IMG/VR virus record: IMGVR_UViG_3300003691_000002
Location: 1-64,000 of that record
From: a virus
DNA: 64,000 nucleotides
Reading direction: 5' to 3' (one strand)
The number at the start of each line of letters is the position of its first letter. Position 1 is the first letter of the stretch. A program made the position numbers and the translations under genes. This document shows, piece by piece, positions 9,740 through 35,032 of the stretch. The notes beneath the pieces were generated by a model. It saw only the letters and a program-made list of their open reading frames with translations. It was not told the DNA's origin and made no database searches.

Positions 9740-9771
9740 TAAATTATATTATAATTATTGTTAAAAATTAT

Positions 9772-9802
9772 TTGCTTTTTGTACAAATTTTTTGTATATT
9801 TG
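9772..9802 (+). promoter_or_regulatory. Bacteroidetes sigma-A type promoter for the cargo/RNAP operon
   Basis: TTG 9772-9774, 20-nt spacer, TATATTTG 9795-9802; ATG at 9807. Confidence 0.7.
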
Positions 9803-9806
9803 TAAG

Positions 9807-12800: not shown

Positions 12801-13277
12801 GATCGGTATCTTGGTAGTTTTAGTGAAATATATGCTAGAATATTTGGGATAAGAAGAGAGCTTGATATTAAACCAGACGAAGTTGTAACTCCTGAGTTAC
12901 TTCTTAAAAAAGAAAAAGAATATTATAAAAAAAATAATATAGAACCAGACTACCAAGAAATTAAACAAATAATGGAACAGAAATCATTAATTGAATTAAT
13001 GAATTTATTAGTACAGAATGAAAAGCATACATTAAAGCAAAAAGGAATAAGCCCCGCAGCTTATGGGGGTAATGTTTCAAATCAAAGCCCTCAGTTTTAT
13101 AGAGAAACTAATTCTTATGATGAAGGTGGTAGTCATGAATCAAATATTAATGGAGGAATACCAATAGGTACTTCTTCTAATGGTAAACTAAATACAGTGG
13201 AAGAAGGAGAATTTTCTTATAACTTCCCTAAACAAGGAAAATTTATTTTTAGTAATAGAATTAATTATGAAAATTAA
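9807..13277 (+). CDS. Multidomain virion cargo protein: lysozyme-like N-terminus and two zincin-like HExxH domains
   Basis: AFHESAG...GRGVYQFE; VDHEFGH; AAHETAH; C-terminal GGSHESN..GGI crAss motif. ATG 9807 preferred over TTG 9792, which overlaps the promoter. Confidence 0.7.
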   Translation: MQELEFLINQLVKTKGGTPKDYYDLLGSVAFHESAGTMNPSIRQYGGGPGRGVYQFEEGKNAGGITAARRTKRFLQSLGAKVPKWLQEAVKGNSLDATKLKKEQQDVLFLGNMIMHPKADFKKIWNGEETVPEFWANYHWAGSSAQRKKKLESFMTSLERYKEANPDAFNTTFDPEGSGYDYATATKYNIQPDASGHYPSVVPETGQILKGKKHPTYRATAKKEKQLGREIYKGDDNLYYSRKGIGELANTKVKKDNTMVFQPIITNDVMKDLPSTYVPPIDDDLEGLNQFAVGGPVDPPTKKKPPTVVYGTPEYAKAYREGLFAELPNELDEVVINSSVDYKKYPLYDSLSEDEKKYFNDNSPIGRAIRRKAYTKKSLASDAKNIAPQLIEGATEALQIPQSAMVEGIQAVRGKNYNFADALPGSNNQRRPSQFIGYKNPTGILQNVVNFGIDALTDPVDLLGAGYVGDIGKVAKAANKTDLGFARNNPISLLVDSIEKGIYKLDYKDSHPKIKKYFDEQVDFFKSEKGKDRLQGMGIVGDRYTNFIDKLEKLKLTSGPETGSLYSPGFGKMHINMFQDNSRELGDISYKSIVDHEFGHFIQDHKNSQLTGRLAQFPFRTYGDWAMSKIDIKDKTIADVPKILKDPNISFKQFIKESDGYATKRAQPTWADVKLGELKLKKGNKIPSKLEREFSNRAQQHDYFRRGNGKYGTNVDNMTERYPFLREYRQAMVDRKYLKDKWEEITPEKVASFQRVYPKIRLNNIMNNTPANHQLIADLLNYTAGSIPIATQLPKENNKYAEGGSVNSNCGGPGQPPCKENDSLPKYLTPTKKGFKLNPYELPDTNKLEHERKWMLNWLKSPGRNKQFESLSRTQYEEDHPLKNWWYNNVPSEKEKKERILEEYNKEIKNIVLNNVETVKYKGGVDVPGNTYMSSAIGAYSPLGHYIYFPYWLEDPENTDKGAAAHETAHASRIDKFKGSKDILTNVLKNDKKYKNLNDRYLGSFSEIYARIFGIRRELDIKPDEVVTPELLLKKEKEYYKKNNIEPDYQEIKQIMEQKSLIELMNLLVQNEKHTLKQKGISPAAYGGNVSNQSPQFYRETNSYDEGGSHESNINGGIPIGTSSNGKLNTVEEGEFSYNFPKQGKFIFSNRINYEN

Positions 13278-15303: not shown

Positions 15304-15305
15304 TT

Positions 15306-20200: not shown

Positions 20201-23200
20201 TTAAAGGATGAACAAGAAATACTTAGAAGAAAATTAGCTCTAGCTCAAGGAGATTTTTCTAATTTTGAAAAAAACTGGTTTATTTATTTACCTGAAACTC
20301 ACGAAAAATACCCTAATGCTAAGTTAAAAGTAGTAAGAAAAAATAAAAAATCTTTTTCAGTTCAATTTTTATATGGCAAATTAAAAGATACTAAGGGAAA
20401 TATTACTTTTGAAAGTATTACAAAGGGAGTTACCTCTGAGTATATTTCTACATTACAAGAACAATTAAAATCTGCACAAGATAGAATAAATAAATACAGG
20501 CAAACTCCTGTATTAAAAAGAGAGGAATTACCTCCTAATGTTTTAAAGGCATTAGAAATGTGGGAAGCTGCTACTAGTGTAGATGAAAATGGTAAAGTAA
20601 CTATTGACCAAGACACTATTGATGAGGAGTTTTTAATTAACTACTTACCTATTAATGCCAAGTTTTCTAAAAGCTTAATGGCTCCTTTACACACTAAGTC
20701 TGATAAAGCTAGTGCTGTTAAATTTAATGCATTATTTAATGCAAAAACTAAAAGAATTAGAACAACTATAATTAAAGAAATTCTTTCTGGTACTCCTATT
20801 AATGACTTAAATACAGTTATTAAAGGACAAATGAATGGTACTATTAAAGCAGATGAAGGAACTCCTGGTAGAGCTGCTGTTAACTCCGTACAAGACCTTT
20901 ATGAATTTCAAGGAGATATAAGTAATATAAAAGCGGATAGACTATTTATTGCTAATGAAGTAGGTAAATTAGAAAATACTAAAGGAAAAACTATTACTTT
21001 AAATAGACCAGTAGCTCCTGGTGAATTATATGTATTAATTCATACAGCTGCTGGAATGCCTTTTTATTTAAAACTAAATGTAGAAAAATTAGATCAAAAT
21101 ACTGCAGAATTCCTGTATGATCTATATAAAGAAAGATTTAAAAATGTAGCTGCAGGTAAACAAGTAAGGCTTAAAACAATGTCTGAAGAGTTATATAATA
21201 AGTTCTTGACTCAATACTCAGATGTTGTACCTTTACTTGGTAAAGATGAAAAAGATATTACTGTAAAAGATGTAATAGATTTCTTTATATATGACAGGTC
21301 TAGTAATAAAAAATCTAGAACAAGATTTATAAGCCAAGAAATTTTTGTTATTGGTAAAGATGAATTTACAAAAAAAGATTTTGAAAAACCAGAAGAAAAA
21401 GAAAGATTTATAAGTGCTTTAATGGATGTCAAAAGACACCATATAAGATTTAAAAAGAGAAAGAATGCTCCTAAAAAACAAGCTACTTTAGAAAATGTAG
21501 CATACCGTAGGTATATGTTTGGTAATAAAATAATATCTACTAATGCAGTTGTTAATGAGCCTACTTTCCAAGGTAAGACCACTATTTATTTAGATACTTT
21601 TTCTTTACGTGTTAAAAATAAACTATCTGATTACAATCCTGGAAAAGCTAAAGTTTATAAAAAACAATTAAGAGGTACTAATAAACAACTAAGAAAATAT
21701 TTTCCAAAGCTTGCAGAAAGATATGTATCTCTTACTACTAATGAGCAAGGTTATACTGTAAAGAATGAATCAGGTTTTTATCAAAGAGCTTCTAGATTAA
21801 AAAATCTTACTCCTTACCAGAAAAAAGATGCAACATTTTTTAAAGCTGTAAAGAGAGGTACTATTATAGATAACATGTTTAGGCAATTCTTTGCTTACCC
21901 TATGAATAGATTTCATTTTATAGAAGAAGGAAAAAGAACTGTAGATAATGTTAATGGGGCTTATAATAAAAAATATGCAGACAATAAAGAAATAGAAGGA
22001 ACAGATATAGAAATGACTACTGAGTTCTTTGAAAATTTATTTGATGTTTTTCAAAGCTATGCAGATTATTTTTATAAAAACAATTATGTAATATATTCTA
22101 ACGCTCCATCTGCTGTAGGAATTTTTGGTGACAAAGAAGATACAGATACTTATTTTGGAGGTACTATTGATTTACTTGCCTATAAAGTAGATACTGGAGA
22201 GTATCATATGTTTGATTTAAAAACTACTTTTAAAGATAGAAGTTTTTTCTATAATAATCCTAAAGAAGATAAATATAACTATAAAAATGGAGATCAAATA
22301 CAATTAAATGCTTATAGAGAATTATATTATCAATTTGCTGGAATCCCAGTATCTAGAATGTTTGTTATTCCTTTGACCACTAGAGCCTCACAAGGTAACA
22401 AATATGAAAATATTGGTGAAGATAAAAATCAAAAAATATTAGATGTAGAAGAATTTGATCTTAAAAAATATTTTGAAGAAAAATGGCTTCCTGCAATAAA
22501 AGCTAAAAAGAAAAAGAATACATCAGGAAAACCAACTCTTAATTATTCTAGTATATTTGGAGATAATCCTAATACTGCTAGCAGCAATGTTACAATAACC
22601 TCTACTGTTAGAGAGGCTTTCATTGGTTGGGTAAAAGAAGGCCCAGATGTGATTGAAAAATATAGTATAGGTATACCTAAAGGTTCAGGAACAAGTGCTG
22701 CTATAGATGTTTATTATATTCATCCTGCAGGTATGTTAGCACAAAGACAAGACCCAACTAAAAGGGATAATTATGTATTGGTAACCAACCCTTCAGTAAT
22801 TAAAAAAGTTATAACAACATATTTTGAACTAGCAGAAAAGCAGGCAAAAATGGTAGCAGTACAAAGTAAAAAACTGCCTGCTTTACAAGAAAAGAAAGCA
22901 GAATTACAAGCTGCTTTAACAGGTGTTACAGACCCAGCTAAAATTAAAGCTATAAAAGCTAACATTGCAGCTAAATATAAAGGAAAAGTACCAGGGTCTA
23001 TGGACATTTTAACAATTCAAAGTTTTAAAAAGTTGTATGGGGAACTTTTAGAAATAAAAGATGAGGTATTAGAAAATTTTAACAACTCTATTTCAGGAGC
23101 AGTTACAACTACTATTCCTTCTGTTAACCCTAATACAGATACCCCTACAATTCCTACAACTCCTGTACCCCCTACTCCACCAGGAGAAAATAATACTCCT

Positions 23201-23455
23201 GTACCTCCGTCAGGGAATGGAGTTCAACAAGACACTGTTATTAATTTAAGTAATATGTCAGAAGAAGAAAAAACTGATTTGTTTGATAATTTAATGAAGA
23301 GTACTTATGCTACACCTGTACTATTAAAGGCTTTTCAAAAAGAAGCAGCTAAATTATCAAATCCAGAAAAGGGAGAATTAATTAATACATTTATATCTTT
23401 ACTTAAAGATAAAGGTATAACAGAGGAAGAAATATCTAAAAAATGCGGATTATAA
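17246..23455 (+). CDS. Giant cargo protein upstream of RNAP, with membrane-like N-terminal segments and a PD-(D/E)xK nuclease-like domain
   Basis: 2069 aa; GTIDLLAYK...MFDLKT...QLNAY at about 22160-22315. Confidence 0.75.
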   Translation: MEEENLLLGDIQSRGMSASPNPLIADIAARNSLSYESAFNYSGIVPVGGIGLGESRYDKPNIPFSQLYNLDEIRARRQPWLAKFGAGFGRVGTKAVSEIAKMPGVLGGIVGGAIGQAIDLATGEDNTDFVKTAFDNIWINSIADAEEHINEEVLPVYVRKAVQDGNLWDKITSIDFWATDGADGLGYIVAMLAPGQAISKLGLGSKLMPTKALTAMAKSTDDAAATLASLGIKPSNADIGLAAVANTIFESAAEAKGSMDSFEQSPKYQEELEERINKNYNEIIANAQGNPEIIQNAKILAQEKAEKEMQELKSGIGAKVFKSNVGILIGPNIAMSKILWGGRAARGARNQITKEGVEKVANPSTLKKIKNWGDEWGKGVLREGFWEEGLQSTAENYFTENPENTLGDFLTDAPKEWLKTLGTTDGQVAVFLGSVYGGTMSAAANSYKAKKDRETLNRLIERGNNSLNQLASIFQSSDVFETVINEQGEEEVVYVKNEETGELEKKVDPVKLRMKLEGDLKFEALSAIFDVAKETGDKRLLDAVKNKAYTEMVIPFILDDKLGVETLRQALDAHGKIAEATQGNNLDINEIKSDILNKATYLKNQYNLFQDFSRSLIKLNADNVKNKDFDIFYDKLLEQYLVSHSELQFLEKRKEKLTETITELGNNNRRFPDAANILLDPKNQSLIRDVLQSDPRLEKAYTEYLTLDPSIESKKDVIEDVWNQDKSNEAFQKFVNDSRELERKLEQAKKVQTVLDDIANSSNLEELDNILIPEGIDNETRDLINATKKERKEELEAAEEEEAQKAKEDADSSLNENERESLEKEAYIKNLKENFAEGDIITVPDWHKNAGDDVTITKINKKSISVEDSKGNKFLIKYEDYYDAAASNDILTVYSTEGNVLTEEDRQVTKVVNAKEDTRLEQESFDTPVMIRNDELDQIFNFIDPAVEVFERNPVDKKGHKVYFEIAGTTTETTLSKEEKSELKKLKDEQEILRRKLALAQGDFSNFEKNWFIYLPETHEKYPNAKLKVVRKNKKSFSVQFLYGKLKDTKGNITFESITKGVTSEYISTLQEQLKSAQDRINKYRQTPVLKREELPPNVLKALEMWEAATSVDENGKVTIDQDTIDEEFLINYLPINAKFSKSLMAPLHTKSDKASAVKFNALFNAKTKRIRTTIIKEILSGTPINDLNTVIKGQMNGTIKADEGTPGRAAVNSVQDLYEFQGDISNIKADRLFIANEVGKLENTKGKTITLNRPVAPGELYVLIHTAAGMPFYLKLNVEKLDQNTAEFLYDLYKERFKNVAAGKQVRLKTMSEELYNKFLTQYSDVVPLLGKDEKDITVKDVIDFFIYDRSSNKKSRTRFISQEIFVIGKDEFTKKDFEKPEEKERFISALMDVKRHHIRFKKRKNAPKKQATLENVAYRRYMFGNKIISTNAVVNEPTFQGKTTIYLDTFSLRVKNKLSDYNPGKAKVYKKQLRGTNKQLRKYFPKLAERYVSLTTNEQGYTVKNESGFYQRASRLKNLTPYQKKDATFFKAVKRGTIIDNMFRQFFAYPMNRFHFIEEGKRTVDNVNGAYNKKYADNKEIEGTDIEMTTEFFENLFDVFQSYADYFYKNNYVIYSNAPSAVGIFGDKEDTDTYFGGTIDLLAYKVDTGEYHMFDLKTTFKDRSFFYNNPKEDKYNYKNGDQIQLNAYRELYYQFAGIPVSRMFVIPLTTRASQGNKYENIGEDKNQKILDVEEFDLKKYFEEKWLPAIKAKKKKNTSGKPTLNYSSIFGDNPNTASSNVTITSTVREAFIGWVKEGPDVIEKYSIGIPKGSGTSAAIDVYYIHPAGMLAQRQDPTKRDNYVLVTNPSVIKKVITTYFELAEKQAKMVAVQSKKLPALQEKKAELQAALTGVTDPAKIKAIKANIAAKYKGKVPGSMDILTIQSFKKLYGELLEIKDEVLENFNNSISGAVTTTIPSVNPNTDTPTIPTTPVPPTPPGENNTPVPPSGNGVQQDTVINLSNMSEEEKTDLFDNLMKSTYATPVLLKAFQKEAAKLSNPEKGELINTFISLLKDKGITEEEISKKCGL

Positions 23456-23456
23456 T

Positions 23457-26400
23457 ATGGTTTGTAGTAGAAGTGTAAAATATTTAGGGAAAGACTCAAG
23501 CGTAAAATCTTTGTTATTTGATAAGTTATATCAAATAACAAAAGATGAAAAATACGCAGAGGATTTATATAACCAATTTAATACTGATTATTTCAAAAGA
23601 GAAGTTTTCGGAGATTTTACTAGTATAAATAGTGAAACTGAAGATTTATTTTTAAATAGAGTAGATGAAAATAATGAACCTCTTCTTATTTATAATTCAG
23701 ATATAGATAAATATTATTATATAGATTTATACGGACAAAAAGTTTATGAGCCTCAGCAGCAAGGATTGGAAATGTTCTTTACTAAAGAAGATTTAGATAT
23801 GCTTGTAAATACAATGGCTCTTAAATATTTTCAAACTTTAAATTATGATTTTGAAAATAATAATGCTGTTATTAAATTAAATAATATTTCTATTCAAGAT
23901 ATAGTAGAGCAATTTATAGATACTAAAATAAAAGAATTTCAACAGTCTGGTGATTTTATTAAAATGGCTTTAGCTCCTTCTTTAGAAGGTTCTAAACAAT
24001 ATATGAATGAATGGACTAAAAAGATAAGACAATTCTTTTTATCTAAAAAACTTATTATAAATGATTCAGTAGATTTTGAAACTGCTGAAGATTATTTAGA
24101 GCAAATAGAAGAGCAAGGTAAAGAAAATATTATAAGACCTGATGCTTGGACTACTGATAGAAAAAATACAGTTGCAAACAATATTAAATTATTTTTATCT
24201 TTATATAAAACATCTGAATTAAATAAATTTGGAGAATATAATTTTGTAAATTTTGAAGATGTTTTTACAAACTTAAATCAGATACTTTCTAATGTAGTAG
24301 CTGACTTAGATGAAAATGGTAATTTAGAAGATTTATATGAAGTCTTCTTAGAAGAAATAGGTAAATATGCTAAATATAAACCTTTTCTTCAAACTCTTTA
24401 TGATGATTTAAAAAGAGTTACTAATGAGGATTTTAAAAATAGATTTGTAAATACTTTCTTTTTAGCTCGTAAAAAATTCTTAGGAACTATATATGGGTAT
24501 GATGATAATGGTAATTTAAATGTAACTGTACAAGATTTTTCAGAAGTTACATCTAGAAAAAATGTAGTATTGTCTAAATGGAAAGACAATATGGAATTAA
24601 TGGATGTCACTGGCACTACTTTAGCCCAAGCAATGTCAGTGTTAAATCCAGCCTTAATAGCTTATAGTAAAGAGCCTAATGAGAATACTATTGAAAAGTT
24701 AAAAGATTCTTTTATGGAGGTACTTGCTTCTGTAGGAGTTACTATAACTAGGCAAAATTTAGACTTTTTATTAGAGACTCACAAAAAATTTGATGATCCA
24801 GGAGAAGCTCTTGCTTTTATGGCTACTCAAGCAGTAAGGGCTGTAAAAGAAATTGGTAAAACAAGTCCTGGAGCAGAAGTGCTTAGAAATTCAGCTTTTG
24901 TAAATTTAGCTTCTGGAGAAGCTTTCTTTTTTGATAAAGGCTCAGATGCTTCTTTCTTTTCTGTTGGTAAAAGTAGATGGTTATATTCTTTATATTCCCA
25001 CCTAGAGAAAATATTTATAGAATGGAAAAATAATCCTGAAGCATTAAGGTCTCATTTTAATAGTTCAGCCTGGACTAAAGGTAGTTTTTATGCTAAAAAA
25101 TTATTAGCTCTTGATTTAGAAGATGATGTAACAGATGAAGAAAGATTAGAGTTAATGCAACAAAGACTTGAAGATTTAGATGTCTTTGTATTTAACTCTT
25201 TTCAAACAGATAGAGCAGCTAAAGAGGCAGTAGATAATAAAAGTATTGAGTATATAGATAGGATAACTGACTATATCAATAAAATGCTTAACCATCATAA
25301 GAATGGTAAAACTTTTCATAACACTGCTTTAGCAGGAGATAAAAATAACCAATATCAAATAGTTTGGGGTGATTGGGTTCATCAAGAAACTAATGCTGAA
25401 AAAGGTACAGACGGTAAATTAATAATTAACGAGGATGTTAAAGATATTTTCTGGAATTATTTTAAAGCAGAATATTATCGTATAGAAGAAGCACATCAAA
25501 GACTAGAAAATCAGGAAGAGCCTATTGTTAATTATGATCAAAAAGCCCTAGAGATGAGCTTATTTCCATCTCTTTCACCTGTTCAAAATGGTAAAAATGT
25601 AGCCAAGCCAAAAGGTCTTAGTAAGCCTATTTATTATAAAGGGCGTCCTATATATAAAGACATAGAATCTAGAAAAGCAGATATTATGCCTTTAATCGTA
25701 GAGGCATTACATACTAAAATAAAAGAAACTTATAAAATATTAGAAGACGCAGGAGTTTTATATTATACATATCAAGGATTTAGAAAGCTTAGAAATGTAG
25801 ATTTTGATATTTTAAGAAGTTATATTCCTACAGATAATTTACAAAGACCTGTTAGACCTCTTTCTGAAAAAGCAAAAGATACAAGAAGAGCTAATATTGA
25901 AAATGGTTTATTTAGTTTAATATCAGATGTTACTGTAAACAGTTTAATTTCTCAAATAGAGTACTCTATGCTTATAGCTGGGGATGTAGCTTTTTACAAA
26001 AACTTTAATGATTACAAAAAAAGAATACAGCAAACATATACAGACGGACAGTATTTAAATAGATTGTCCTCAGATGAAGTTTATTTTAATATTGCCGTAA
26101 TTAATAGTGTAAAAGTTCCAGCTGTTAATTTAGACCTTATTAAAAAACATATAGATGATCCTTCAATTATAGACGCATATTCTAATGTAAATAATGCTGA
26201 TGGACAGGCTTGGATTACTCCTCAAAGGTGGAAATTTATTATGGATAAATTAGGTAAATCAGGACCTATTTTAGATTCTACCTATAAAAAAATGTTTGAA
26301 AGAGAACCTGTATTTACTTTAGAAGAATTAAAATTACTAGCACAGCCTTTAAAGGGTGTATATTTTAGTAATAGAAATGGGCATCCTATATATTTAAAGT

Positions 26401-29400
26401 ATTCTCAAGCTGTTATATTGCCTAATCTTATGCGCAATACTCCTATAGAAAAGTTGTATAAGAAAATGGTAGAAGATGAAAATGGCAATGAATTGCCTTT
26501 TAATGAACAAACTCACGAGCTTGTTACTTTGGATGGTATTAAAGTAGGCGCAATAGCTCCTACAACAGTACATAAAGCAGATGGCTCTATAGCAGAGGAT
26601 ATTCAACTAAATCAAATGCAGCTTGAAAATTATTATTGGAAGCTGCAACAAGACCTTCCCACAAAAGGAATTAAACCTAGGGATTTAGGTAGCCAAATAC
26701 AAAAAAATGTATTTCAAGGAATTGCTTTCTTTCCTGTGGAAGAAAGGTTTGATCTTGGTGGGAAAGAGCTTGATAAAAATGAAATGATTAAACATCTACA
26801 TAATATATTTGGCGTAATGTCAAATAGATCGATGTTAGATTTAGTACAAAGTTTGGGAATTAATTCTAAAGGGGAGATTAAAAATGTAGATGCTCTTTAT
26901 AGAAATATTATTCAACAACTAAGTAAAAGAGATACCCCTAATCAAGTAATGATTGAAGCATTACAATATGGAGTTTCTCCTTTTGGTATACCTGGAAGTT
27001 ATGAACTATTTCAAAATGTCTTTAGTAAGATATGGAATGATAACACTATAAAAATTAAAACAAATGGTGCAGGGTATATTCAAATGTCTGATTTTGGACT
27101 TAGTTATGATGAGGCTAAAAGGAAAAAAGGAATAAGATTTACTCCTTGGTTTGATAAAGAGGCTGGAAAACTTTCACCCCCTGTAATTGGGATTAATCCT
27201 GTTACAGGAAAAGAAGTGATTAAGCCTGCTGGCATATTTCTATCTGGTTCTTTTATTGCAAAACATATACCTGATTACAGAAAATTTACAGATGAACAAC
27301 TTTTTGGTAAATATGATGCAGAAACTGGAGAATTATTAGAACGAGGCAAAATAGATGAAAGGATATTAAAGAATATTGTGCACTATCGTATCCCTAATCA
27401 AGGGTTTTCTTCTAATGACCCTGTTACTGTAATGGGTATACTCCCAGATGAGATAGGAGATACTGTAGTTGTTTATACAGGTATTACTACTAAAACAGGT
27501 TCTGACTTTGATATTGATAAAGGATATTTAATGATGCCTGCTTATAAAGCAGATTATCCTGAAGGAATAAAAGTAGAAGTTAGAAAATATATAGAATATC
27601 AAAACTGGACTTATGAGGATGTTATAAATGAATTATATAATTTACAAGTATTACCTAAAAATAATAAAAAATTAAATTATAATATTTTAATTGATTTTAT
27701 TATCAATGACCCTACTTATGAACACTACGATGAATTTAGAAGTGTTTTAGAAATTCAAAAATTACAAAGAAAAACAGCTAAAAAATTAATTTATATTGAA
27801 CCTGATCACAATGCTCCACTGGAAACACAAACTATGGAGCAATTACAAAATCATTTATTAGAAGCTTATATATCAGTTTTTACAAATAAAAACAACTATA
27901 AGTTGTTAATGAATCCTATTGATTCTTCTGTTATTGAAAATGATATTAAATCATTTTTAGATGTACCAGAAACTTCTGATCTTTCTGGCTTCTCTGGTAT
28001 AGAAGATTTGGAATTGAAAAATAAATTAATGACAGGAAAAGCAGGATTAGGACAAGCTGTTAACTATACTGTTGATTATGGTAGGGGCTCTATGGCTAAT
28101 TTATCTATGTTAGATGCCACTTTCCCTATGGGAAGAGATACATTAGATAGGCAAAGTAGTTTAGAATTAACTGATGAAGATTTAAAATTCTATGTAAAAG
28201 AGTTTAATTCTAAGATGCCTAAAGAATTACATATAACTTATGAATTTGCACAGGAAAATCTAAGAGATATAGAGATTGCAACTTCTTTTATGACTATCAT
28301 TAACGGGTTTGTAGATGTTGCTAAAGATGATTATTTAGTACAAGGTAATTGGAATTTAGCTACTAATGCTGTAGGTCTTAGTATGCTTAGAGCAGGAACA
28401 CATCCTTTTATTATTACCAGGTTTTTATATCAACCTATAGTAAGAGAATATGTTAATTTCTTAGAAAGAGTTAATTCTCAAACTTTAAAAAGAGAAGGTA
28501 GTAGAATTAAATTATTTAAGCTAGAAAAAATACTAGACGAATTTAAAGAAAACAGTAATCTTACTTTAAATGGTAATACTATAAATGTATATCAGTTAAT
28601 GAAAAGGCATTTAGGGTATTCTGATGTACAATTTTTAAATAAAAAACGTATTGAAAAAAGTGAAGAAAGTATTGAAAATACTTATGAGAGATTATATGAA
28701 GAATTGCACGAAGCCTTTGATTTAGGTGCAGAAGATCAATATGAAGAAATACAAGAGATAGCTGAAAAAGCTAGAGACCTTTTATATTCTTATTTTTTAA
28801 GTCCTCAAACATCAGGTGTAAGTTACTTTTCATTAAAACATTTAACTAATCAAATTAAAAACCCTACTCTAGCAGGGCAAAAAGGTTACTTAGAATATTT
28901 TGAAGACACAAGAAAATTAGGTAGGAATTTAAATAAAGTAGTACAGGCAAATAAAACAGACGTAGAGGGTAAAGGTAAAAATGCTACGAGTAATTTAATT
29001 AAATTAAATATTATAAATAAGTTATTAACTTATATTGAAGAAGAAGAAGTTGCTGGTTATGAAACAATGCTTTTTTATGATGGTAAAATGACATCTGTTG
29101 CACACGCTATTAATAATAGTCTTAGTGAGCCTTTAAAAATAATGTTAAATAACCCTACATTATTTCCTACAGTTAATAGCTCTGCTATTAAAACTTTTAA
29201 TTATATTTCAAGAAGACTTAGTAAATTTAAATTAGACAATCAAGATTTAGGAGATACTCTTGAAAGAAATTATTATTCTTATTTAATGTCTGGTTTTGGT
29301 CCTTTTCAATTAAATACAGAGCAAAGGAAACAACTGTTGCTTAATATGCCTGATAGGGTAAGAGCTATGCAAATTTTATACCCTGAAAATGCTTTGTTAG

Positions 29401-30776
29401 AAGAGCTAGTGTTGATTACAAGTGAAGATACTGGAATTACTTATATAAATTCTACTATTAGTAAAAAAACTCCTGATAGAATAAAAGAAATGGTTTCTGC
29501 ATGGGAAGATCTTTTAGAAGAAGAGGCATTTTTTGCAGAAGATTTAATTAAATATTCTTATATACATTCAGGATTTAACAGAAGGATAAATTCATTTCAT
29601 GAGTATATCCCTCCAAAATGGTTTAATTTAAATAGATTAAATTCTTATCTTTACCAGTTAGATAAAGATCTTCCTGATGTTGTTGATATAAATTTTGTAG
29701 ATCAGTTCTTTAGAAATAATATAAATATTTCTTTTGGAAGTGTAACATTATGGCCTGGTAACTCTACTTATGACTATACTATAGACAAATCAGGAAAATT
29801 AGTTAGGTTAGGCCCTGTAATTGAAGACAAATCAGAAGCTAAATACTTAGCAAAAAGAACTATACGTTCTAGCAATCCTAATATTCCTGATAGAGATGTT
29901 TATTATAAATTAATAGGTATTAAAAGTACTAAAGCGGGGCTTAGAGGTATTTATGTTATTACTTCTCCTTTAGGTCTTATAGATGGTAGAAATAGATTTA
30001 CAGAATATAATATATTAAATAAAAACAATGTTGCTTATAATTTTTCTATGTTTGATGCAATTAATGAGCAGAGTTTTAAAAAGATTGATTTAATGAGTAT
30101 TGTTAATACTATTGAAAATAATTCAAAAGATATTACAAATTTAGATAAAGATGTATTCTTAGACACTCCTGTAGTTGATGAAGAATTTATGGCTGGTGGG
30201 TTTAGAACAGAAGAGTTACAAAGTAGTGATATAGAAAATGAGCAGCCTCCTACAAGAGTAGAGGTTAATAAAATTATATCTGGAGGACAAACTGGGATAG
30301 ATAGATTAGGATTAGAAATAGGACAAGAGCTGGGGATATTAACAGGAGGAACTGCTGCTCCAGGTTTTGTTACTGAGGAAGGTAAAGATGATTCTTTAGC
30401 TGATTTTGGTGTTGAAGAAATATCAGAAGATTTACAGCAAGGTAAAAAAGGCAGACAATTTTATTTACCTAGAACAGAGCAAAATGTCATTAATTCTGAT
30501 GGTACTGTATATTTTAGTGAAAATAAAAGTTCAGCTGGACTTAGAGCAACTAAAAATTTTGCAGATGGTTATGATAAACCTTTTATTTTAAATCCTACAG
30601 CAACAGAATTAAGAGAATGGATAGACAAAAATAATATACAAGTAATAAATGTTGCTGGTAATAGAAGCAGTAAAATGTCAGAGGAGTTTGTAGAAATAGT
30701 AAGAGAAACTATGATAGAAGCATTAACTCCTCAAGAGCTTTCTACAAAAGAGGGTGATAACTTTGATTTTTGTTAA
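23457..30776 (+). CDS. Virion-packaged double-psi beta-barrel RNA polymerase (phi14:2 gp66-like) with C-terminal SLOG domain
   Basis: 2439 aa; ADGQAW, YRIPNQ and catalytic GSDFDIDK (about 27498-27521); C-terminal IISGGQTGID...RTEQNV..SDGT...INVAGNR. Confidence 0.92.
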   Translation: MVCSRSVKYLGKDSSVKSLLFDKLYQITKDEKYAEDLYNQFNTDYFKREVFGDFTSINSETEDLFLNRVDENNEPLLIYNSDIDKYYYIDLYGQKVYEPQQQGLEMFFTKEDLDMLVNTMALKYFQTLNYDFENNNAVIKLNNISIQDIVEQFIDTKIKEFQQSGDFIKMALAPSLEGSKQYMNEWTKKIRQFFLSKKLIINDSVDFETAEDYLEQIEEQGKENIIRPDAWTTDRKNTVANNIKLFLSLYKTSELNKFGEYNFVNFEDVFTNLNQILSNVVADLDENGNLEDLYEVFLEEIGKYAKYKPFLQTLYDDLKRVTNEDFKNRFVNTFFLARKKFLGTIYGYDDNGNLNVTVQDFSEVTSRKNVVLSKWKDNMELMDVTGTTLAQAMSVLNPALIAYSKEPNENTIEKLKDSFMEVLASVGVTITRQNLDFLLETHKKFDDPGEALAFMATQAVRAVKEIGKTSPGAEVLRNSAFVNLASGEAFFFDKGSDASFFSVGKSRWLYSLYSHLEKIFIEWKNNPEALRSHFNSSAWTKGSFYAKKLLALDLEDDVTDEERLELMQQRLEDLDVFVFNSFQTDRAAKEAVDNKSIEYIDRITDYINKMLNHHKNGKTFHNTALAGDKNNQYQIVWGDWVHQETNAEKGTDGKLIINEDVKDIFWNYFKAEYYRIEEAHQRLENQEEPIVNYDQKALEMSLFPSLSPVQNGKNVAKPKGLSKPIYYKGRPIYKDIESRKADIMPLIVEALHTKIKETYKILEDAGVLYYTYQGFRKLRNVDFDILRSYIPTDNLQRPVRPLSEKAKDTRRANIENGLFSLISDVTVNSLISQIEYSMLIAGDVAFYKNFNDYKKRIQQTYTDGQYLNRLSSDEVYFNIAVINSVKVPAVNLDLIKKHIDDPSIIDAYSNVNNADGQAWITPQRWKFIMDKLGKSGPILDSTYKKMFEREPVFTLEELKLLAQPLKGVYFSNRNGHPIYLKYSQAVILPNLMRNTPIEKLYKKMVEDENGNELPFNEQTHELVTLDGIKVGAIAPTTVHKADGSIAEDIQLNQMQLENYYWKLQQDLPTKGIKPRDLGSQIQKNVFQGIAFFPVEERFDLGGKELDKNEMIKHLHNIFGVMSNRSMLDLVQSLGINSKGEIKNVDALYRNIIQQLSKRDTPNQVMIEALQYGVSPFGIPGSYELFQNVFSKIWNDNTIKIKTNGAGYIQMSDFGLSYDEAKRKKGIRFTPWFDKEAGKLSPPVIGINPVTGKEVIKPAGIFLSGSFIAKHIPDYRKFTDEQLFGKYDAETGELLERGKIDERILKNIVHYRIPNQGFSSNDPVTVMGILPDEIGDTVVVYTGITTKTGSDFDIDKGYLMMPAYKADYPEGIKVEVRKYIEYQNWTYEDVINELYNLQVLPKNNKKLNYNILIDFIINDPTYEHYDEFRSVLEIQKLQRKTAKKLIYIEPDHNAPLETQTMEQLQNHLLEAYISVFTNKNNYKLLMNPIDSSVIENDIKSFLDVPETSDLSGFSGIEDLELKNKLMTGKAGLGQAVNYTVDYGRGSMANLSMLDATFPMGRDTLDRQSSLELTDEDLKFYVKEFNSKMPKELHITYEFAQENLRDIEIATSFMTIINGFVDVAKDDYLVQGNWNLATNAVGLSMLRAGTHPFIITRFLYQPIVREYVNFLERVNSQTLKREGSRIKLFKLEKILDEFKENSNLTLNGNTINVYQLMKRHLGYSDVQFLNKKRIEKSEESIENTYERLYEELHEAFDLGAEDQYEEIQEIAEKARDLLYSYFLSPQTSGVSYFSLKHLTNQIKNPTLAGQKGYLEYFEDTRKLGRNLNKVVQANKTDVEGKGKNATSNLIKLNIINKLLTYIEEEEVAGYETMLFYDGKMTSVAHAINNSLSEPLKIMLNNPTLFPTVNSSAIKTFNYISRRLSKFKLDNQDLGDTLERNYYSYLMSGFGPFQLNTEQRKQLLLNMPDRVRAMQILYPENALLEELVLITSEDTGITYINSTISKKTPDRIKEMVSAWEDLLEEEAFFAEDLIKYSYIHSGFNRRINSFHEYIPPKWFNLNRLNSYLYQLDKDLPDVVDINFVDQFFRNNINISFGSVTLWPGNSTYDYTIDKSGKLVRLGPVIEDKSEAKYLAKRTIRSSNPNIPDRDVYYKLIGIKSTKAGLRGIYVITSPLGLIDGRNRFTEYNILNKNNVAYNFSMFDAINEQSFKKIDLMSIVNTIENNSKDITNLDKDVFLDTPVVDEEFMAGGFRTEELQSSDIENEQPPTRVEVNKIISGGQTGIDRLGLEIGQELGILTGGTAAPGFVTEEGKDDSLADFGVEEISEDLQQGKKGRQFYLPRTEQNVINSDGTVYFSENKSSAGLRATKNFADGYDKPFILNPTATELREWIDKNNIQVINVAGNRSSKMSEEFVEIVRETMIEALTPQELSTKEGDNFDFC

Positions 30777-30778
30777 TT

Positions 30779-33700
30779 ATGAAGTGTGCAGTACAATTTA
30801 AAACAAAAGAGTTTTTACAAGACAATAATTTAATTGACTCTAATAATAATGTATTAAACTTAGAGGAATTTAAAAAAGCAGCAAGAACTCTTGATAATTT
30901 AGCTTTTTCTAAGTATTCAGTAGATACCTTAGACAATAGTTTATTTTCATTAAGGAATGAGGCTGATGGGATAAAGGTAGAGTATAATGAAAATATGTTT
31001 AATATTTTGCAAAATGCAGAAGCGGAATATTATACAGAATCTTTTCAATCTTTACTTGAAAAATATAAGCAAAAAGTTAACTCGTTACGTGTTAATAATA
31101 ACTATGTTGAAGGTGATTTAGTAAGCGCTTTAGAGGATATAGAATTTACAGAAGTAACTGCAAGTACTACTTTATTTAATACGGAAAGACCTTCTAATGC
31201 TAATGAGGCTATAAAAAGAATTTTAGAAGAAGATTTAGATGGGGAAGTTAGGGAACTTTTAGAGCAAATAGTAAGGAAATTTCCTGAGCTTAAAACTAAA
31301 ATTCAATATGTTAGTGCTAAAGCTTTACTTGCTAAAACAAATGAGCCTGCTAATGTGATGGTCTATGACAGAATAAATAATGTTATATACGTTAGCCCTG
31401 AACTAATTAAAGAAAGAGGTTACTCTGCTAGTTACATAAGTAACACATTTGTACATGAGGTAATGCACTCTGTTACTCTAAAGGCTTTATTAGACCCTAC
31501 AACCATAGAGCAAGAGCTTTTCTCAGAGCAAGTGGCACTGGAGTATACCAGACTAAAAGAAAAGGCGTCAGAAGAGCTTAAAAACAGTAAAGGATTTGCC
31601 AATAAAGAGGAGTTTGTAGCAGAAATGTTCTCTAATCCTGATTTTAGACAGGAAGTGAATAGATTAGACAAGAATTTTTTCGATATGCTTATTAACTTAA
31701 TAAGACGCATATTTGGATTCAAAAAAAATAATGTTTATAATAGGTTAATTAAATCAGGAGTAAGAGGATTTTCTCAAGAAAATATTAATAATGAAAATGC
31801 TCCAGTTTATTATCTTAAAACAGATGAAAATTTTAAAGTAGATAATACTACTTTTGATAAAAGACTTGCTAATACTATAAAGAAAATCAATAATTCTATT
31901 GATCAAAATATAAAACAAATTAAAGGTAAATTAGAATATCGTAAAGAAACTAATTATAATACAGAAGTATTAGATGAAATACTTTTAACACTTCAAGCAA
32001 TAGAAAATGATATTCAAACTACTATTCCTTTAGAGCAAATTAAAGCAATTAATGATTTTGTAAAATTAATTCAAAGATCTTTAAATACTTTAAATGCAGG
32101 ACTTGCAAGAAGAGACCCTGAAAATTTAGAATACACTCGTAATCTTATTCAAAATTATACTGATATTATTTCTTATTATGAGGTTATAGAAGAAATTAAA
32201 GATATTGTTGTTGATTTAGAAACTTCTCGTCCAGAAAATATTTCCGAAGAAGATATAAAGAAGATAGCTGGAGCTACTAATTATACTTTAGGATTATTTT
32301 ATAATGTACAAGGACAGCTGCATTCGTTAATTAAAGAACATATGTTTGATACTTTAAATGATATTAAATATCATAAAGAAGTAGAGAATAAACATTATCA
32401 AAGATTAAAACAAGAACATAAAGATGCTAATCTTATAGGAGATAGGGAACAGTGGATTATACAAATGATGTCTACTCGTGATAAAGAAAGAATAGATGAA
32501 GATGTTAAAATAGCTACTGAAGAATTAATTGCTAATCCTGTATTTGATATTAGTTCTTTTACTCTTAAATTTGTTTCTAGTGTTAATGTAGGTTCTAAAT
32601 TTGTTCAAATATTAGAACATATGTTAAATGAAATATACACAGAAAGAAATAGTGAAAGAGAAAAAGCAGATCAAGAATTTCAAGATATTTTTACAGAAGC
32701 AGTTCAAACTAAAGGAACAAATAATATTAAAAAACTTTATAGTAATCTATATGAACAAACTGCTGATGGAACTTATTATTTAAAAGGAGAATATTCTGTT
32801 AAATTTTTAGATGAGGTAATAGGTAAAATCAATACTGTTAGAGAAAAATATGATGAGCAAATTGAAGAACTTCAATTAACTTACTTAGGTACAGACCCTG
32901 ATAGTGATTTTTATCAAGCTCAAAATGATAAGGTAAGAGCTTTAGTTGAAAAAAGAAATACAGAAATAAAAGCTATTGAAGATGCTAATTATGATTATGG
33001 CGCTGAAAATGAAAAAATAATTAAAGATAAATGGAAAAATGATTTATCTTCTTTATCTGAAATAGATAAAAAACTTTTAAGTTTCTTTACTAAATCTTCA
33101 GAAGATATTCGTAAGCTTTCATATTCTGCTCCTATAATGATGAGCAATATTAAATATTATGGGAATGGAAAATTTTACACTTTACCTAAAATTTCTAAAT
33201 CTGATACAGAAAGATTAATTGTAGATAAAAATGCAGTAGGTTATGTAAAAGATAAATTTGCAGATAGAAATGTAAGAGTTGATGACGTAGGGTATGTAGA
33301 AGAAATGTCTACAGTTGCAGGTAAAAAGATTTTACAGAAAAAATTGTGGTATAGAGACCCTGTTGGAGTATTTGATTCTAAAAATCAATCTTTAGATTTA
33401 ATGACGATATTCCGTTTAGATTATATAAACGCTCTTAATTATAATATAAGACATCAACATGAAGATAAATTAAATTATTTATTAGAAATAGCTTCTGCAA
33501 AAGAAAAGTTTTATAAAAAGAAAGGAAATTTATTAGTAGTCAATCCTAAATTAGAGCAAGCAAAAGTAATTGATGGTGAACAATCTAATACTGCTGCTTT
33601 AATGAAACATATGATGGAAACTAGATTTTATGATGTAATGGCTAAAACAGGTACTACTTTTTTAGGAATGGAAGCGCATAAAATAGTCGATATGCTTAAT

Positions 33701-35032
33701 AGTACATCTGCACTACTTACTTTGTCTTTAAATTTTGCTTCAGGAACTGCTAACGTAATAAATGCTAATGGGCAATTATTTATAGAAAGTTTTGCAAAGG
33801 GTTATCATATAACAGCAAAAGACATAGCTAAAGCTAATGCTTTATATGGTAATAATTTACCTGAAATATTGAAAGATACTACAAGACCTGTAAATAGGTC
33901 TTTAGTTAATCAGATTCATGAATACTTTGATACTCAAGGATTAAGAAATATGTCTAATGTTAATTTTATTATAACAGACATGCTTAAACTTGGTATGAAT
34001 AAAGAAGCTTTAAGAGTATTTCAAGAGTCTGGAGAACATTGGATTCAATCTACTGTAGCTTTAAGTATTTTAAATAATATTAAAGTTTTAAATGAGAATA
34101 GTCAATTTATTGATAAAGATGGTAAAGTAGTAAAATCTAAAGACAAAGCAGCATCTGTTTTAGATATGATGTCTGTAGATAAAACTACTGGTGCTTTACA
34201 AATAAGTGATAAATTTACTTATACTACTCATTCTAAATTAACTAAATGGAATGAAGGAGGTAAAGAAAATGTAACTAGTTTAATCCATAAAAAATTAGAC
34301 GATATAATTGGTAACTACAGACAGACTCATCAGCCAGAAGTAATGAAACATTGGCTAGGAAAACTTGTATTATTATATCGCAAGTTTTTAGTACCAATGG
34401 CTATTTATAGAGGTAAAGGATTAAATACTGTAGGAATAAGAAAAGAAAACTTACAAGAAAAAGATAGACCTTTTAATTATGCCTTACAAGAATATGATGA
34501 AGGTTATTATACTACATTTTTTAGATATGTTTTAGATTCAATTAAAAGAAGAAAATTCTATTTACTTTCTAAAGGGGAAGTTTGGAAAAATCTTACTGAT
34601 TTTGAAAAACATAACATAAAAAAGTTTGTAGTAGAAACAGTTATGATATATGGTATGCTTCCTTTACTTGTAGAGTTTGCTGCAGCTTCTGCTAAAGCAG
34701 ATACTTCTCAAGATGATGAAGAATACTTATTCTTTTTAATATATCAAATTCGTAGATTAAGAACAGAATTAGCACAATACAGAAGTTATAATGAAGCTTT
34801 TAAAATGTTAAGATCCCCTATTCCTTCTGCACGTTTGTTTGAAACTACTTTAGATATATTTACTACATCACTTAATCCTACTAAATGGGGAGAAGTATAT
34901 GAAAATGGACATAATAAAGGTAAAAATAAAATTATTACTAAAACTATGAAACAAATTCCAGTAGCTAAAGAATTCTATAGAACTTATAAAGATTTATTTG
35001 AATTTCAAAATAGTTATTTTGGTAATAGATAA
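30779..35032 (+). CDS. Giant cargo protein with zincin metalloprotease motif
   Basis: FVHEVMHSVT...EEFVAE motif; third giant gene of the crAss RNAP block; ATG at 30779 (MKC...). Confidence 0.75.
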   Translation: MKCAVQFKTKEFLQDNNLIDSNNNVLNLEEFKKAARTLDNLAFSKYSVDTLDNSLFSLRNEADGIKVEYNENMFNILQNAEAEYYTESFQSLLEKYKQKVNSLRVNNNYVEGDLVSALEDIEFTEVTASTTLFNTERPSNANEAIKRILEEDLDGEVRELLEQIVRKFPELKTKIQYVSAKALLAKTNEPANVMVYDRINNVIYVSPELIKERGYSASYISNTFVHEVMHSVTLKALLDPTTIEQELFSEQVALEYTRLKEKASEELKNSKGFANKEEFVAEMFSNPDFRQEVNRLDKNFFDMLINLIRRIFGFKKNNVYNRLIKSGVRGFSQENINNENAPVYYLKTDENFKVDNTTFDKRLANTIKKINNSIDQNIKQIKGKLEYRKETNYNTEVLDEILLTLQAIENDIQTTIPLEQIKAINDFVKLIQRSLNTLNAGLARRDPENLEYTRNLIQNYTDIISYYEVIEEIKDIVVDLETSRPENISEEDIKKIAGATNYTLGLFYNVQGQLHSLIKEHMFDTLNDIKYHKEVENKHYQRLKQEHKDANLIGDREQWIIQMMSTRDKERIDEDVKIATEELIANPVFDISSFTLKFVSSVNVGSKFVQILEHMLNEIYTERNSEREKADQEFQDIFTEAVQTKGTNNIKKLYSNLYEQTADGTYYLKGEYSVKFLDEVIGKINTVREKYDEQIEELQLTYLGTDPDSDFYQAQNDKVRALVEKRNTEIKAIEDANYDYGAENEKIIKDKWKNDLSSLSEIDKKLLSFFTKSSEDIRKLSYSAPIMMSNIKYYGNGKFYTLPKISKSDTERLIVDKNAVGYVKDKFADRNVRVDDVGYVEEMSTVAGKKILQKKLWYRDPVGVFDSKNQSLDLMTIFRLDYINALNYNIRHQHEDKLNYLLEIASAKEKFYKKKGNLLVVNPKLEQAKVIDGEQSNTAALMKHMMETRFYDVMAKTGTTFLGMEAHKIVDMLNSTSALLTLSLNFASGTANVINANGQLFIESFAKGYHITAKDIAKANALYGNNLPEILKDTTRPVNRSLVNQIHEYFDTQGLRNMSNVNFIITDMLKLGMNKEALRVFQESGEHWIQSTVALSILNNIKVLNENSQFIDKDGKVVKSKDKAASVLDMMSVDKTTGALQISDKFTYTTHSKLTKWNEGGKENVTSLIHKKLDDIIGNYRQTHQPEVMKHWLGKLVLLYRKFLVPMAIYRGKGLNTVGIRKENLQEKDRPFNYALQEYDEGYYTTFFRYVLDSIKRRKFYLLSKGEVWKNLTDFEKHNIKKFVVETVMIYGMLPLLVEFAAASAKADTSQDDEEYLFFLIYQIRRLRTELAQYRSYNEAFKMLRSPIPSARLFETTLDIFTTSLNPTKWGEVYENGHNKGKNKIITKTMKQIPVAKEFYRTYKDLFEFQNSYFGNR

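What the first reader, a model, noticed from the sequence alone, without database searches (positions are those of the whole stretch)
23444..30787. Only four cysteines in about 5900 aa of giant cargo proteins, all at the protein junctions
Seen by reading the translations: the 2069-aa protein has one Cys, in its end ...KKCGL*. The 2439-aa RNAP has two, at MVC... and ...FDFC*. The third giant protein has one, at MKC..., and none at its far end. The outer ends of the trio lack Cys, as do the two preceding cargo proteins. Inference: head-to-tail disulfides (or a metal/thiol link) chain the three proteins in gene order, so they could be packaged and threaded through the tail as one string and released in the reducing cytoplasm.
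Basis: partly seen in the sequence, partly recalled or inferred. Interest (0 to 1): 0.72.

Follow-up and report, generated by a model that had tools for sequence, protein, structure and literature searches.

The report
Terminal cysteine clasps chain crAss cargo
Three giant proteins that this marine crAss-like phage carries in its particle, with its RNA polymerase in the middle, have no cysteine except one at each end that faces the next protein, a rule kept across the phage order that points to still untested disulfide bonds tying them end to end.

Summary
Proteins A (2069 aa), B (virion RNA polymerase, 2439 aa) and C (1417 aa) hold four cysteines in 5925 residues: A -2 from its C-end, B at residue 3 and its last residue, C at residue 3. 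The two preceding cargo proteins have none.

Relatives keep the rule at 20-45% identity:
- 17 of 17 A homologues.
- 36 of 36 full-length B homologues.
- 142 of 149 full-length C homologues.

The pairs persist when gaps between the genes reach 1.4 kb, or when gene A lies on the other strand (crAss001, DAC15). A pair is absent where two partners are fused into one protein. A new pair sits where a partner is split.

Cyanophage A4 has the same sequence signature, and a published cryo-EM map shows that pair as a real disulfide (PMC12002296). A4's proteins are not detectably homologous to these.

Best reading (about 0.6): head-to-tail disulfides make one A-B-C chain for joint packaging and ordered ejection. 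No crAss virion has been tested.

I found no paper describing this for crAss phages. This scan has noted the same signature on at least eight other genomes.

The parts
17246..23455 (+). Protein A (2069 aa), counterpart of phi14:2 gp67 and crAss001 gp47. Cys-free except Cys2067.
   Evidence: 17 of 17 homologues have exactly one Cys, 0-3 residues from the C-end. No Pfam or PHROG family.
23444..23446 (+). TGC codon of A Cys2067 (..KKCGL*), the proposed partner of B Cys3.
   Evidence: It is the only invariant column in an alignment of the last 300 aa of 9 A proteins.
23457..30776 (+). Protein B (2439 aa), the virion RNA polymerase. DFDID at residues 1350-1354, cpYpsA SLOG domain at 2273-2408. Cys only at 3 and 2439.
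   Evidence: 29% identity to phi14:2 gp66 over 81% of the query, E 1e-153; (36 of 36 full-length homologues have a Cys at both ends).
23463..23465 (+). TGT codon of B Cys3 (MVC..).
30771..30773 (+). TGT codon of B Cys2439, the last residue (..FDFC*), the proposed partner of C Cys3.
30779..35032 (+). Protein C (1417 aa), counterpart of phi14:2 gp65 and crAss001 gp49. HExxH at 226-230. Cys only at 3.
   Evidence: Cys3 is invariant together with H226, E227 and H230 in 38 diverse homologues.
30785..30787 (+). TGT codon of C Cys3 (MKC..).
   Evidence: The AF2 model of C residues 1-300 (pLDDT 85) puts Cys3 just before helix 4-15.
13267..17246 (+). Two Cys-free cargo-type proteins (678 aa and 646 aa). 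The second matches crAss_CARGO2 weakly. They are not part of the chain here.
   Evidence: 0 Cys each; PF25712 at 19.3 bits, below the cut-off of 27; 17 and 18 Cys expected from base composition.
5615..13277 (+). Context: the muzzle protein (5615-9739) and a cargo-protein-1-like protein (9807-13277). They fix this block as the crAss tail and cargo module.
   Evidence: crAss_MUZ E 5e-210; crAss_CARG1 E 3e-11.

Best explanation
A, B (the virion RNA polymerase) and C are packaged cargo proteins that have been purged of cysteine. Each junction keeps a clasp: one Cys within a few residues of the C-end of the upstream protein, and one Cys at residue 3-8 of the downstream protein.

The two thiols of a clasp most likely form an intermolecular disulfide in the virion. 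This gives a head-to-tail chain A-S-S-B-S-S-C with the same N-to-C polarity as the single fused polypeptides of related phages.

The chain would fix 1:1:1 co-packaging and the order in which the partly unfolded proteins leave through the tail. The Cys-free bodies prevent wrong cross-links. Because the clasps sit at the extreme ends, the chain stays almost linear. Host thiol reductases could later separate the parts.

Shown: the sequence rule, its conservation, and its coupling to gene fusion and fission.

Shown by others: the same signature is a real disulfide in phage A4, and crAss001 virions contain other intermolecular disulfides.

Inferred: the disulfide in crAss cargo, the threading of the chain, and the release by reduction.
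For: 1. Conservation at 20-45% identity.
- A: 17 of 17 homologues have exactly one Cys, 0-3 residues from the C-end, and 0 of 17 have one at the N-end.
- B: 36 of 36 full-length homologues have a Cys at position 3-8 and another 0-7 residues from the C-end; 33 have exactly two.
- C: 142 of 149 full-length proteins have a Cys at position 2-8 (107 of them at position 3) and 137 have only that one. There are 5 non-terminal Cys in 218,492 residues, and 0 of 149 have a Cys in the last 8 residues.

2. It is a feature of the proteins, not of the DNA.
- The pairs persist across gaps between the genes of 0 to 1386 nt.
- They persist when gene A lies on the opposite strand, in crAss001, DAC15, cr112_1, cr116_1 and cr128_1.

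3. Fusion removes a whole pair.
- A+B fusions FpV4 gp32, L013, L014, L022, P0087, P0089 and P0091 hold a single Cys, at the C-end.
- The B+C fusion P0237 (3373 aa) has no Cys at all.

4. Fission creates a pair.
- L058 (574 + 1934 aa), L050 (689 + 2002 aa) and L057 (1167 + 1308 aa) carry new facing Cys.
- Unsplit homologues (L052, L053) have only the N-terminal Cys.
- L047 shows a run of at least four such proteins.

5. Only the head-to-tail assignment makes every fusion remove a complete pair.

6. Precedent. In A4, gp27 (1717 aa, sole Cys at 1715) and gp26 (1114 aa, sole Cys at 5) are joined by a disulfide seen by cryo-EM (passages of PMC12002296; Cys counts).

7. crAss001 virions use intermolecular disulfides in the tail and at the portal vertex (PMC10172136).

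8. Residues flanking the clasp Cys are enriched in K/R (0.21 against 0.137) and poor in D/E (0.06 against 0.147).
Against: - No crAss virion has been examined for this bond. The cargo is unresolved in the crAss001 maps, and that paper does not mention cargo cysteines.
- Virions assemble in a reducing cytoplasm. This genome has no thioredoxin or glutaredoxin match. The Erv1 search is uninformative because its control found nothing in any genome.
- Gut crAss phages live without oxygen.
- The position of the Cys is not strict. The C-end Cys of B lies 7-8 residues in for the crAss001 group and 49 residues in for cr273_1.
- Seven of 149 C-family proteins show no N-terminal Cys. Two are visibly miscalled starts (P0019 against P0012, P0124 against P0021). 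For P0117, relatives of its N-terminal part do carry the Cys. The other four are unresolved.
- The Cys-rich lineage L026/L027 keeps the three B and C end Cys, but its gene A was not found.
- The state tree needs only three changes and has long branches, so independent events at the A/B junction are few.
- Fused lineages show that separation of A and B is not required for function.
Confidence: 0.62

Rival explanations
1. The paired terminal thiols are joined by something other than a disulfide, such as a bridging metal ion (a zinc-clasp or Cu(I)-type bis-thiolate) or another thiol chemistry. The chain-forming role would be the same.
For: The pairing logic demands only that the two Cys work together. 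A metal link could form in the reducing cytoplasm, where assembly happens.
Against: - There is only one Cys per terminus and no conserved His, Asp or second Cys beside it, which is too few ligands for a usual Zn site.
- Pairs act independently, since A+B fusions keep a lone B-C pair.
- The one solved case with this signature, A4, is a disulfide.
Confidence: 0.12
2. Each terminal Cys has its own job and they do not bond to each other. Examples would be a cysteine switch that masks the zincin site of C, regulation of the polymerase, or attachment to the portal, capsid or DNA.
For: Cys3 of C is invariant together with the HExxH motif in 38 diverse homologues. Published work proposes that the packaged polymerase is self-inhibited and later activated.
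Against: - 27 of 142 C proteins that keep the N-terminal Cys lack any HExxH.
- Both members of a pair vanish together at fusions and appear together at fissions.
- The outer ends of the chain never carry a Cys: 0 of 17 A N-ends and 0 of 149 C C-ends.
Confidence: 0.1
3. The pattern is a by-product of gene junctions (start and stop context, translational coupling) or of chance in Cys-poor proteins.
For: In the window the genes abut: a 1-nt and a 2-nt spacer.
Against: - The pairs persist across gaps of 359-1386 nt and when gene A is on the other strand.
- The position in the protein is conserved while the DNA context varies.
- The odds of four of four Cys falling within 5 residues of the four inner ends are about 1e-10, and the pattern repeats in over 190 homologues.
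Confidence: 0.01

Closest known systems
Cyanopodophage A4 (Anabaena phage A-4L) ejection proteins gp27 and gp26: disulfide Cys1715-Cys5 in the pre-ejectosome (PNAS 2025, PMC12002296; passages read)
   Same: The sequence signature is identical. The upstream protein of 1717 aa has its only Cys 2 residues from the C-end, and the next gene's protein of 1114 aa has its only Cys at position 5. Neighbouring gp29 is Cys-free. Both are packaged ejection proteins of a podophage.
   Different: - No detectable homology to crAss A, B or C (phmmer best E 0.002 in a small set; hhalign probability 0.1%).
- One link, not a two-link chain.
- No RNA polymerase involved.
- In A4 the bond is seen inside a folded pentameric ring.
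Cys-free ejection proteins of other podophages: N4 gp50-52, DEV gp71-73 (PMC11445570, passages read), T7 gp15 and gp16
   Same: Strong suppression of cysteine in proteins that are ejected through the tail. N4 gp50 (3500 aa), gp51 and gp52, and T7 gp15 and gp16, have 0 Cys. The DEV paper explains this by passage through the periplasm.
   Different: Those proteins have no terminal pairs. In crAss phages depletion is combined with one retained Cys at each facing end.
Cellulophaga phage phi14:2 gp67-gp66-gp65 and Bacteroides phage crAss001 gp47-gp50-gp49 (virion RNA polymerase block)
   Same: These are homologous proteins, and both are found in virions according to the papers. The same four Cys are present: phi14:2 at 1797/1797, 3 and 2179/2180, and 3; crAss001 at 2339/2341, 5 and 2404/2412, and 5.
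   Different: - The window phage is only 29% identical to phi14:2 in B.
- B here carries an extra C-terminal cpYpsA SLOG domain.
- Neither paper mentions these cysteines: 0 occurrences of cysteine or disulfide in the phi14:2 preprint, and none about cargo in the crAss001 atlas.
Intermolecular disulfides of the crAss001 tail and portal vertex (gp57 dimer, tail hub with ring proteins, R1 with R2; PMC10172136)
   Same: They show that a crAss virion, even from the gut, forms and uses disulfides between proteins.
   Different: Those bonds are in resolved structural proteins that are not Cys-depleted. They are not in the ejected cargo.

Membership tests
Crassvirales virion RNA polymerase block (phi14:2 gp67/gp66/gp65 type) | The middle protein is homologous to gp66 and has the DFDxD catalytic motif. 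| tested here: met
   tblastn 29% identity over 81% of the query, E 1e-153. DFDID at residue 1350.
Crassvirales virion RNA polymerase block (phi14:2 gp67/gp66/gp65 type) | The block lies after the muzzle and cargo protein genes of the crAss tail module. | tested here: met
   crAss_MUZ (E 5e-210), crAss_CARG1 (E 3e-11) and a weak crAss_CARGO2 match lie upstream in the same order as in phi14:2.
Crassvirales virion RNA polymerase block (phi14:2 gp67/gp66/gp65 type) | The third protein carries a zincin-type HExxH motif. | tested here: met
   HExxH at 226; the motif is invariant in 38 homologues; only weak fold matches to M34-type zincins (best E 0.07).
Crassvirales virion RNA polymerase block (phi14:2 gp67/gp66/gp65 type) | The proteins are present in the virion and ejected into the host. 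| not testable with these tools
   Known for phi14:2 and crAss001 from the papers. This phage is uncultured.
A4-type disulfide clasp between consecutive ejection proteins | The upstream protein has its only Cys a few residues from the C-end, and the downstream protein has its only Cys at about position 3-8. | tested here: met
   window; A4 gp27 at 1715/1717, gp26 at 5.
A4-type disulfide clasp between consecutive ejection proteins | Sequence homology to A4 gp27 and gp26. | tested here: not met
   no significant similarity. The resemblance is in how it works, not in common descent that can be detected.
A4-type disulfide clasp between consecutive ejection proteins | The disulfide is observed in the virion. 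| not testable with these tools
   Needs non-reducing gels, disulfide mass spectrometry or cryo-EM of a crAss virion.
Cys-free ejection proteins of podophages (N4, DEV, T7) | Cysteine is strongly suppressed relative to the rest of the proteome. | tested here: met
   4 Cys in 7249 residues of five cargo proteins, against 0.3-3.5% in 27 of the 32 other ORFs.
Cys-free ejection proteins of podophages (N4, DEV, T7) | Complete absence of cysteine. | tested here: not met
   Four conserved terminal Cys, against 0 in N4 gp50-52 and T7 gp15 and gp16.

The most novel reading that the evidence does not exclude
Terminal cysteines are a sequence-readable code that specifies which packaged proteins are tied together and in what order. 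In crAss-like phages, and convergently in A4-like cyanophages, a peptide bond between cargo modules can be exchanged in evolution for a head-to-tail disulfide and back. The virion therefore always ejects one continuous thread of about 0.7 MDa or more, with the RNA polymerase inside it, and the host's own reductases cut that thread on arrival. If so, chain membership, ejection order, and true gene fission as opposed to intron interruption could all be read from genomes alone.
Probability: 0.4. Interest if true: 0.85.

Novelty: new variant of a known kind. Interest (0 to 1): 0.72.

Why it matters
Crassvirales include the most abundant phages of the human gut. How they pack and deliver megadalton cargo, including the polymerase that starts infection, is an open question. 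The crAss001 atlas could not resolve the cargo and left the ejection order to 'interactions with one another'.

A conserved two-link clasp gives a concrete model that two cultured phages, phi14:2 and crAss001, can test at the bench. It explains why these giant genes are fused in some lineages and split in others. It extends a single structural observation in a cyanophage to a whole phage order. It also offers a simple rule for annotating cargo chains and start codons in metagenomic phage genomes.

Tried and rejected
- **Nucleotide-level junction signal.** Rejected: the pairs persist across gaps of 359-1386 nt and when gene A is on the other strand.
- **Cysteine switch for the zincin of C.** Rejected as the sole reason: 27 of 142 C proteins with the Cys lack HExxH.
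- **Homology of the clasp to A4 gp26 and gp27.** None found.
- **A phage-encoded thiol oxidoreductase in this genome.** No PF00085 or PF00462 match. The PF04777 search is uninformative, because its control found nothing in any genome.
- **Close relatives by single-protein scan of IMG/VR.** None. The alignment-based scan worked.
- **Context of the Cys-less C homologue P0209.** None found.
- **p-crAssphage.** Accessions NC_024711 and JQ995537 are not in the phage collection. Intestiviridae is therefore represented by one genome and Crevaviridae by none.
- **AF2 model of the last 300 aa of A.** Low confidence (pLDDT 47.7, 9 sequences). It is used only as a hint of a Pro/Thr-rich linker followed by a small helical end module.
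- **Alignment A3.** The A fragment was spread wrongly over the full-length homologues, so the alignment was not used for folding.
- **Foldseek of C residues 1-300.** Only weak zincin matches.
- **Rfam on the interrupted polymerase genes (L028, L031).** No family at gathering score, so the nature of those inserts is open.
- **Suoliviridae A+B fusions.** They hold 1-16 internal Cys, and I did not map these onto the old A/B junction. The statement 'no Cys at the fused junction' rests on the seven fusions that have no internal Cys at all.
- **Rows left out of the tree.** cr116_1 gp051 (truncated core) and P0086 (no polymerase core found).
- **Near-duplicates.** L005, L006, L008, L012, L020, L025, L027, L048, L055 and the similar L054 and L056 were counted once with their twins.
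- **Supplements.** Supplementary files of the papers were not opened. Extended Data Table 3 of PMC10172136 (reduced against non-reduced mass spectrometry) may bear on the claim.


Full report
**What is in the window.** The window belongs to an 88.7-kb IMG/VR virus record. Its + strand carries the crAss tail and cargo module:
- muzzle protein, 5615-9739;
- a cargo-protein-1-like protein, 9807-13277;
- two further proteins of 678 and 646 aa, the second with a weak cargo-protein-2 match;
- three giants: A (17246-23455, 2069 aa), B (23457-30776, 2439 aa) and C (30779-35032, 1417 aa).

B is the virion RNA polymerase. It is 29% identical to Cellulophaga phage phi14:2 gp66 over 81% of its length (E 1e-153). 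It has DFDID at 1350 and an added cpYpsA SLOG domain at 2273-2408. C has HExxH at 226.

A has one Cys (2067 of 2069). B has two (3 and 2439, its last residue). C has one (3). The 678-aa and 646-aa proteins have none.

From base composition one expects about 50, 67 and 35 Cys codons in A, B and C. The off-frames of the same DNA hold 19-140 TGT or TGC triplets each. Of the 32 other ORFs of 150 aa or more, 27 contain Cys (0.3-3.5%). Only one has a Cys in its first 8 residues and two in their last 8.

**Conservation.** The nearest named phage, phi14:2, shows the same four positions at 29% identity: gp67 at 1797/1797, gp66 at 3 and 2179/2180, gp65 at 3.

Searches of a collection of 5.8 billion proteins gave the following.
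- **A:** 17 of 17 homologues have exactly one Cys, 0-3 residues from the C-end.
- **B:** 54 hits.
  - 36 are full-length polymerases. All 36 have a Cys at position 3-8 and another 0-7 residues from the C-end, with three internal Cys in 87,465 residues.
  - P0069-P0072 are fragments.
  - P0074 has odd ends and no Cys.
  - P0079-P0085 and P0088 match only the SLOG domain; P0080 and P0090 were not classified.
  - P0086, P0087, P0089 and P0091 are long fusions, treated below.
- **C:** the 37 proteins plus the 140 new representatives give 177. Of these, 149 are at least 1000 aa long and start with M.
  - 142 have a Cys at position 2-8 (107 at position 3, 27 at position 4).
  - 137 have no other Cys.
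  - There are 5 non-terminal Cys in 218,492 residues.
  - None has a Cys in the last 8 residues.
  - Of the seven without the Cys, P0019 and P0124 are visibly called from an internal Met (compare P0012 and P0021). For P0117, relatives of its N-terminal part carry the Cys. The other four are unresolved.

In an alignment of 38 diverse C proteins, Cys3 is invariant together with the HExxH residues. In the otherwise barely alignable last 300 residues of nine A proteins, the Cys is the only invariant column.

**It is a protein feature.** I counted 14 distinct genomes in which A and B are separate genes and both lay in the fetched DNA: the window, phi14:2, L004, L007, L009, L010, L015, L016, L018, crAss001, cr112_1, cr128_1, DAC15 and cr116_1. 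All 14 have the A C-end Cys and the B N-end Cys.

Gaps between the genes range from an overlap to 1386 nt. In the five gut Steigviridae of this set, gene A lies on the opposite strand, convergent with B and C, yet it keeps its single C-end Cys.

Across 35 distinct genomes that hold both the B C-end and the C N-end:
- all 35 have the C Cys at position 3-6;
- 34 have the B Cys within 10 residues of the end;
- the exception is cr273_1, at 49 residues.

The one Intestiviridae genome sampled has a different architecture and obeys the same rule. A 2018-aa zincin-bearing protein has its only Cys at 2017. It is followed by a 4098-aa polymerase with Cys3 and no C-end Cys, and no cargo gene follows.

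**Fusion and fission.**
- Where A and B are one polypeptide, the junction pair is gone. FpV4 gp32 (4287 aa), L013, L014, L022, P0087, P0089 and P0091 each hold a single Cys, at the C-end, facing Cys3 of C where C was fetched.
- P0237 is a 5'-truncated protein of 3373 aa that aligns to B 68-2090 and C 589-1409. It has no Cys at all.
- Where the C-type protein is split, a new facing pair appears.
  - L058: 574 aa (Cys 3 and -2) plus 1934 aa (Cys 4). Together they are colinear with residues 3-573 and 590-2350 of the unsplit L051 protein.
  - L050: 689 aa (Cys 3 and last) plus 2002 aa.
  - L057: 1167 aa (Cys 4 and -1) plus 1308 aa (Cys 4).
  - The unsplit L052 and L053 proteins have only the N-terminal Cys.
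- L047 shows at least four proteins in a row with facing Cys.
- A FastTree of the polymerase core (69 rows) needs at least two changes between the split and A+B-fused states and one for B+C. It has long-branch caveats.
- Only the head-to-tail pairing (A C-end with B N-end, B C-end with C N-end) makes every fusion delete a complete pair.
- An interruption of the polymerase gene exactly after DFD, in cr116_1 and L028, carries no conserved pair and looks like an insert to be spliced out. No Rfam family was found there.

**What the link is.**
- The PNAS 2025 paper (PMC12002296, passages read) reports a cryo-EM disulfide between Cys1715 of gp27 and Cys5 of gp26 in the packaged pre-ejectosome.
- In the A-4L genome, gp27 (1717 aa) and gp26 (1114 aa) each have exactly that one Cys, and gp29 has none.
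- So the same signature is a real disulfide in one virion.
- A4's proteins are not detectably related to A, B or C, so this is a likeness of mechanism.

The crAss001 atlas (PMC10172136, passages read) shows intermolecular disulfides in the tail and at the portal vertex. It lists gp45, gp46, gp47, gp49 and gp50 as unresolved cargo that must partly unfold to leave, and it says nothing about cargo cysteines. The phi14:2 preprint has no occurrence of cysteine or disulfide. It notes that the three proteins are fused in some phages.

Cys-free ejection proteins are known from N4 and DEV (PMC11445570). I confirmed 0 Cys in N4 gp50-52 and in T7 gp15 and gp16.

Residues flanking the clasp Cys are rich in Lys and Arg and poor in acidic residues. 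This suits reactive thiolates, though that step is inference.

Structure predictions:
- C residues 1-300 (pLDDT 85): Cys3 sits at the tip just before helix 4-15 of a confident N-domain.
- Last 300 aa of A (pLDDT 48, low confidence): a disordered Pro/Thr-rich linker, then a small helical end module that ends at the Cys.

**Limits.**
- Nothing here shows the bond in a crAss virion.
- Assembly is cytoplasmic, and this genome shows no thioredoxin or glutaredoxin.
- A metal or other thiol bridge is not excluded.
- Fused lineages show that later separation is not essential, so I rate joint packaging and ordered ejection above release by reduction.
- A cysteine switch for the zincin is unlikely as the main reason, because 27 of 142 C proteins keep the Cys without any HExxH.

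**Novelty.** Five library searches found no paper describing terminal cysteine pairs or a disulfide chain in crAss cargo. Supplements were closed. This scan has reported the same signature on at least eight other genomes. My counts are independent of those notes, apart from the lead to the A4 paper.

Noticed in passing
window 30273-30680: The polymerase B ends in a cpYpsA SLOG domain (PF12694, E 6e-22), followed by about 30 residues and the terminal Cys. phi14:2 gp66 lacks this extension. Other large phage proteins share only this domain (P0079-P0088).
   Followed up: partly
L028 11758-12875; L031 17962-18803: In two relatives the polymerase ORF stops right after DFD of the catalytic DFDID motif and resumes with (I/V)DK about 0.8-1.1 kb later. 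In cr116_1 the insert holds a Cys-rich 215-aa ORF. P0070 and P0071 end at the same point. No Rfam intron family reached its gathering score.
   Followed up: partly
L032-L036, L038, L040, L019-L025, L028: Suoliviridae-type loci read TAG as a sense codon in the cargo and late genes (4-78 in-frame TAG per gene). Of the eight replication genes counted for TAG in three of these loci, all have none.
   Followed up: partly
window 17246-23455 (alignment A3 consensus): The A-family consensus contains a stretch reading ..DLL.YD........IDLKT....R.. followed by ..IQQNAY.EL.KQ... From recall, this looks like a PD-(D/E)xK nuclease motif. Pfam gave no hit for A.
   Followed up: no
window 9807-13277: The cargo-protein-1-like protein is not Cys-free. 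It has two Cys 8 residues apart (positions 815 and 823 of ORF 9792-13277) and none at its ends.
   Followed up: no
L045 1229-1819 (phage T7): T7 gp14 has a single Cys, at position 2. gp15 and gp16 have none, and no facing C-end Cys was seen in gp13.
   Followed up: no
L041 8855-9100; L043 26226-26501: cr128_1 and Rudgehvirus jaberico are annotated with small thioredoxin-like proteins. The window's genome gave no thioredoxin or glutaredoxin match.
   Followed up: partly
L026/L027 5105-17184: One Steigviridae-like lineage has relaxed Cys depletion: 19 Cys in B and 10 in C. It still keeps Cys3 and the last-residue Cys of B and Cys3 of C. Its gene A was not in the fetched DNA.
   Followed up: no
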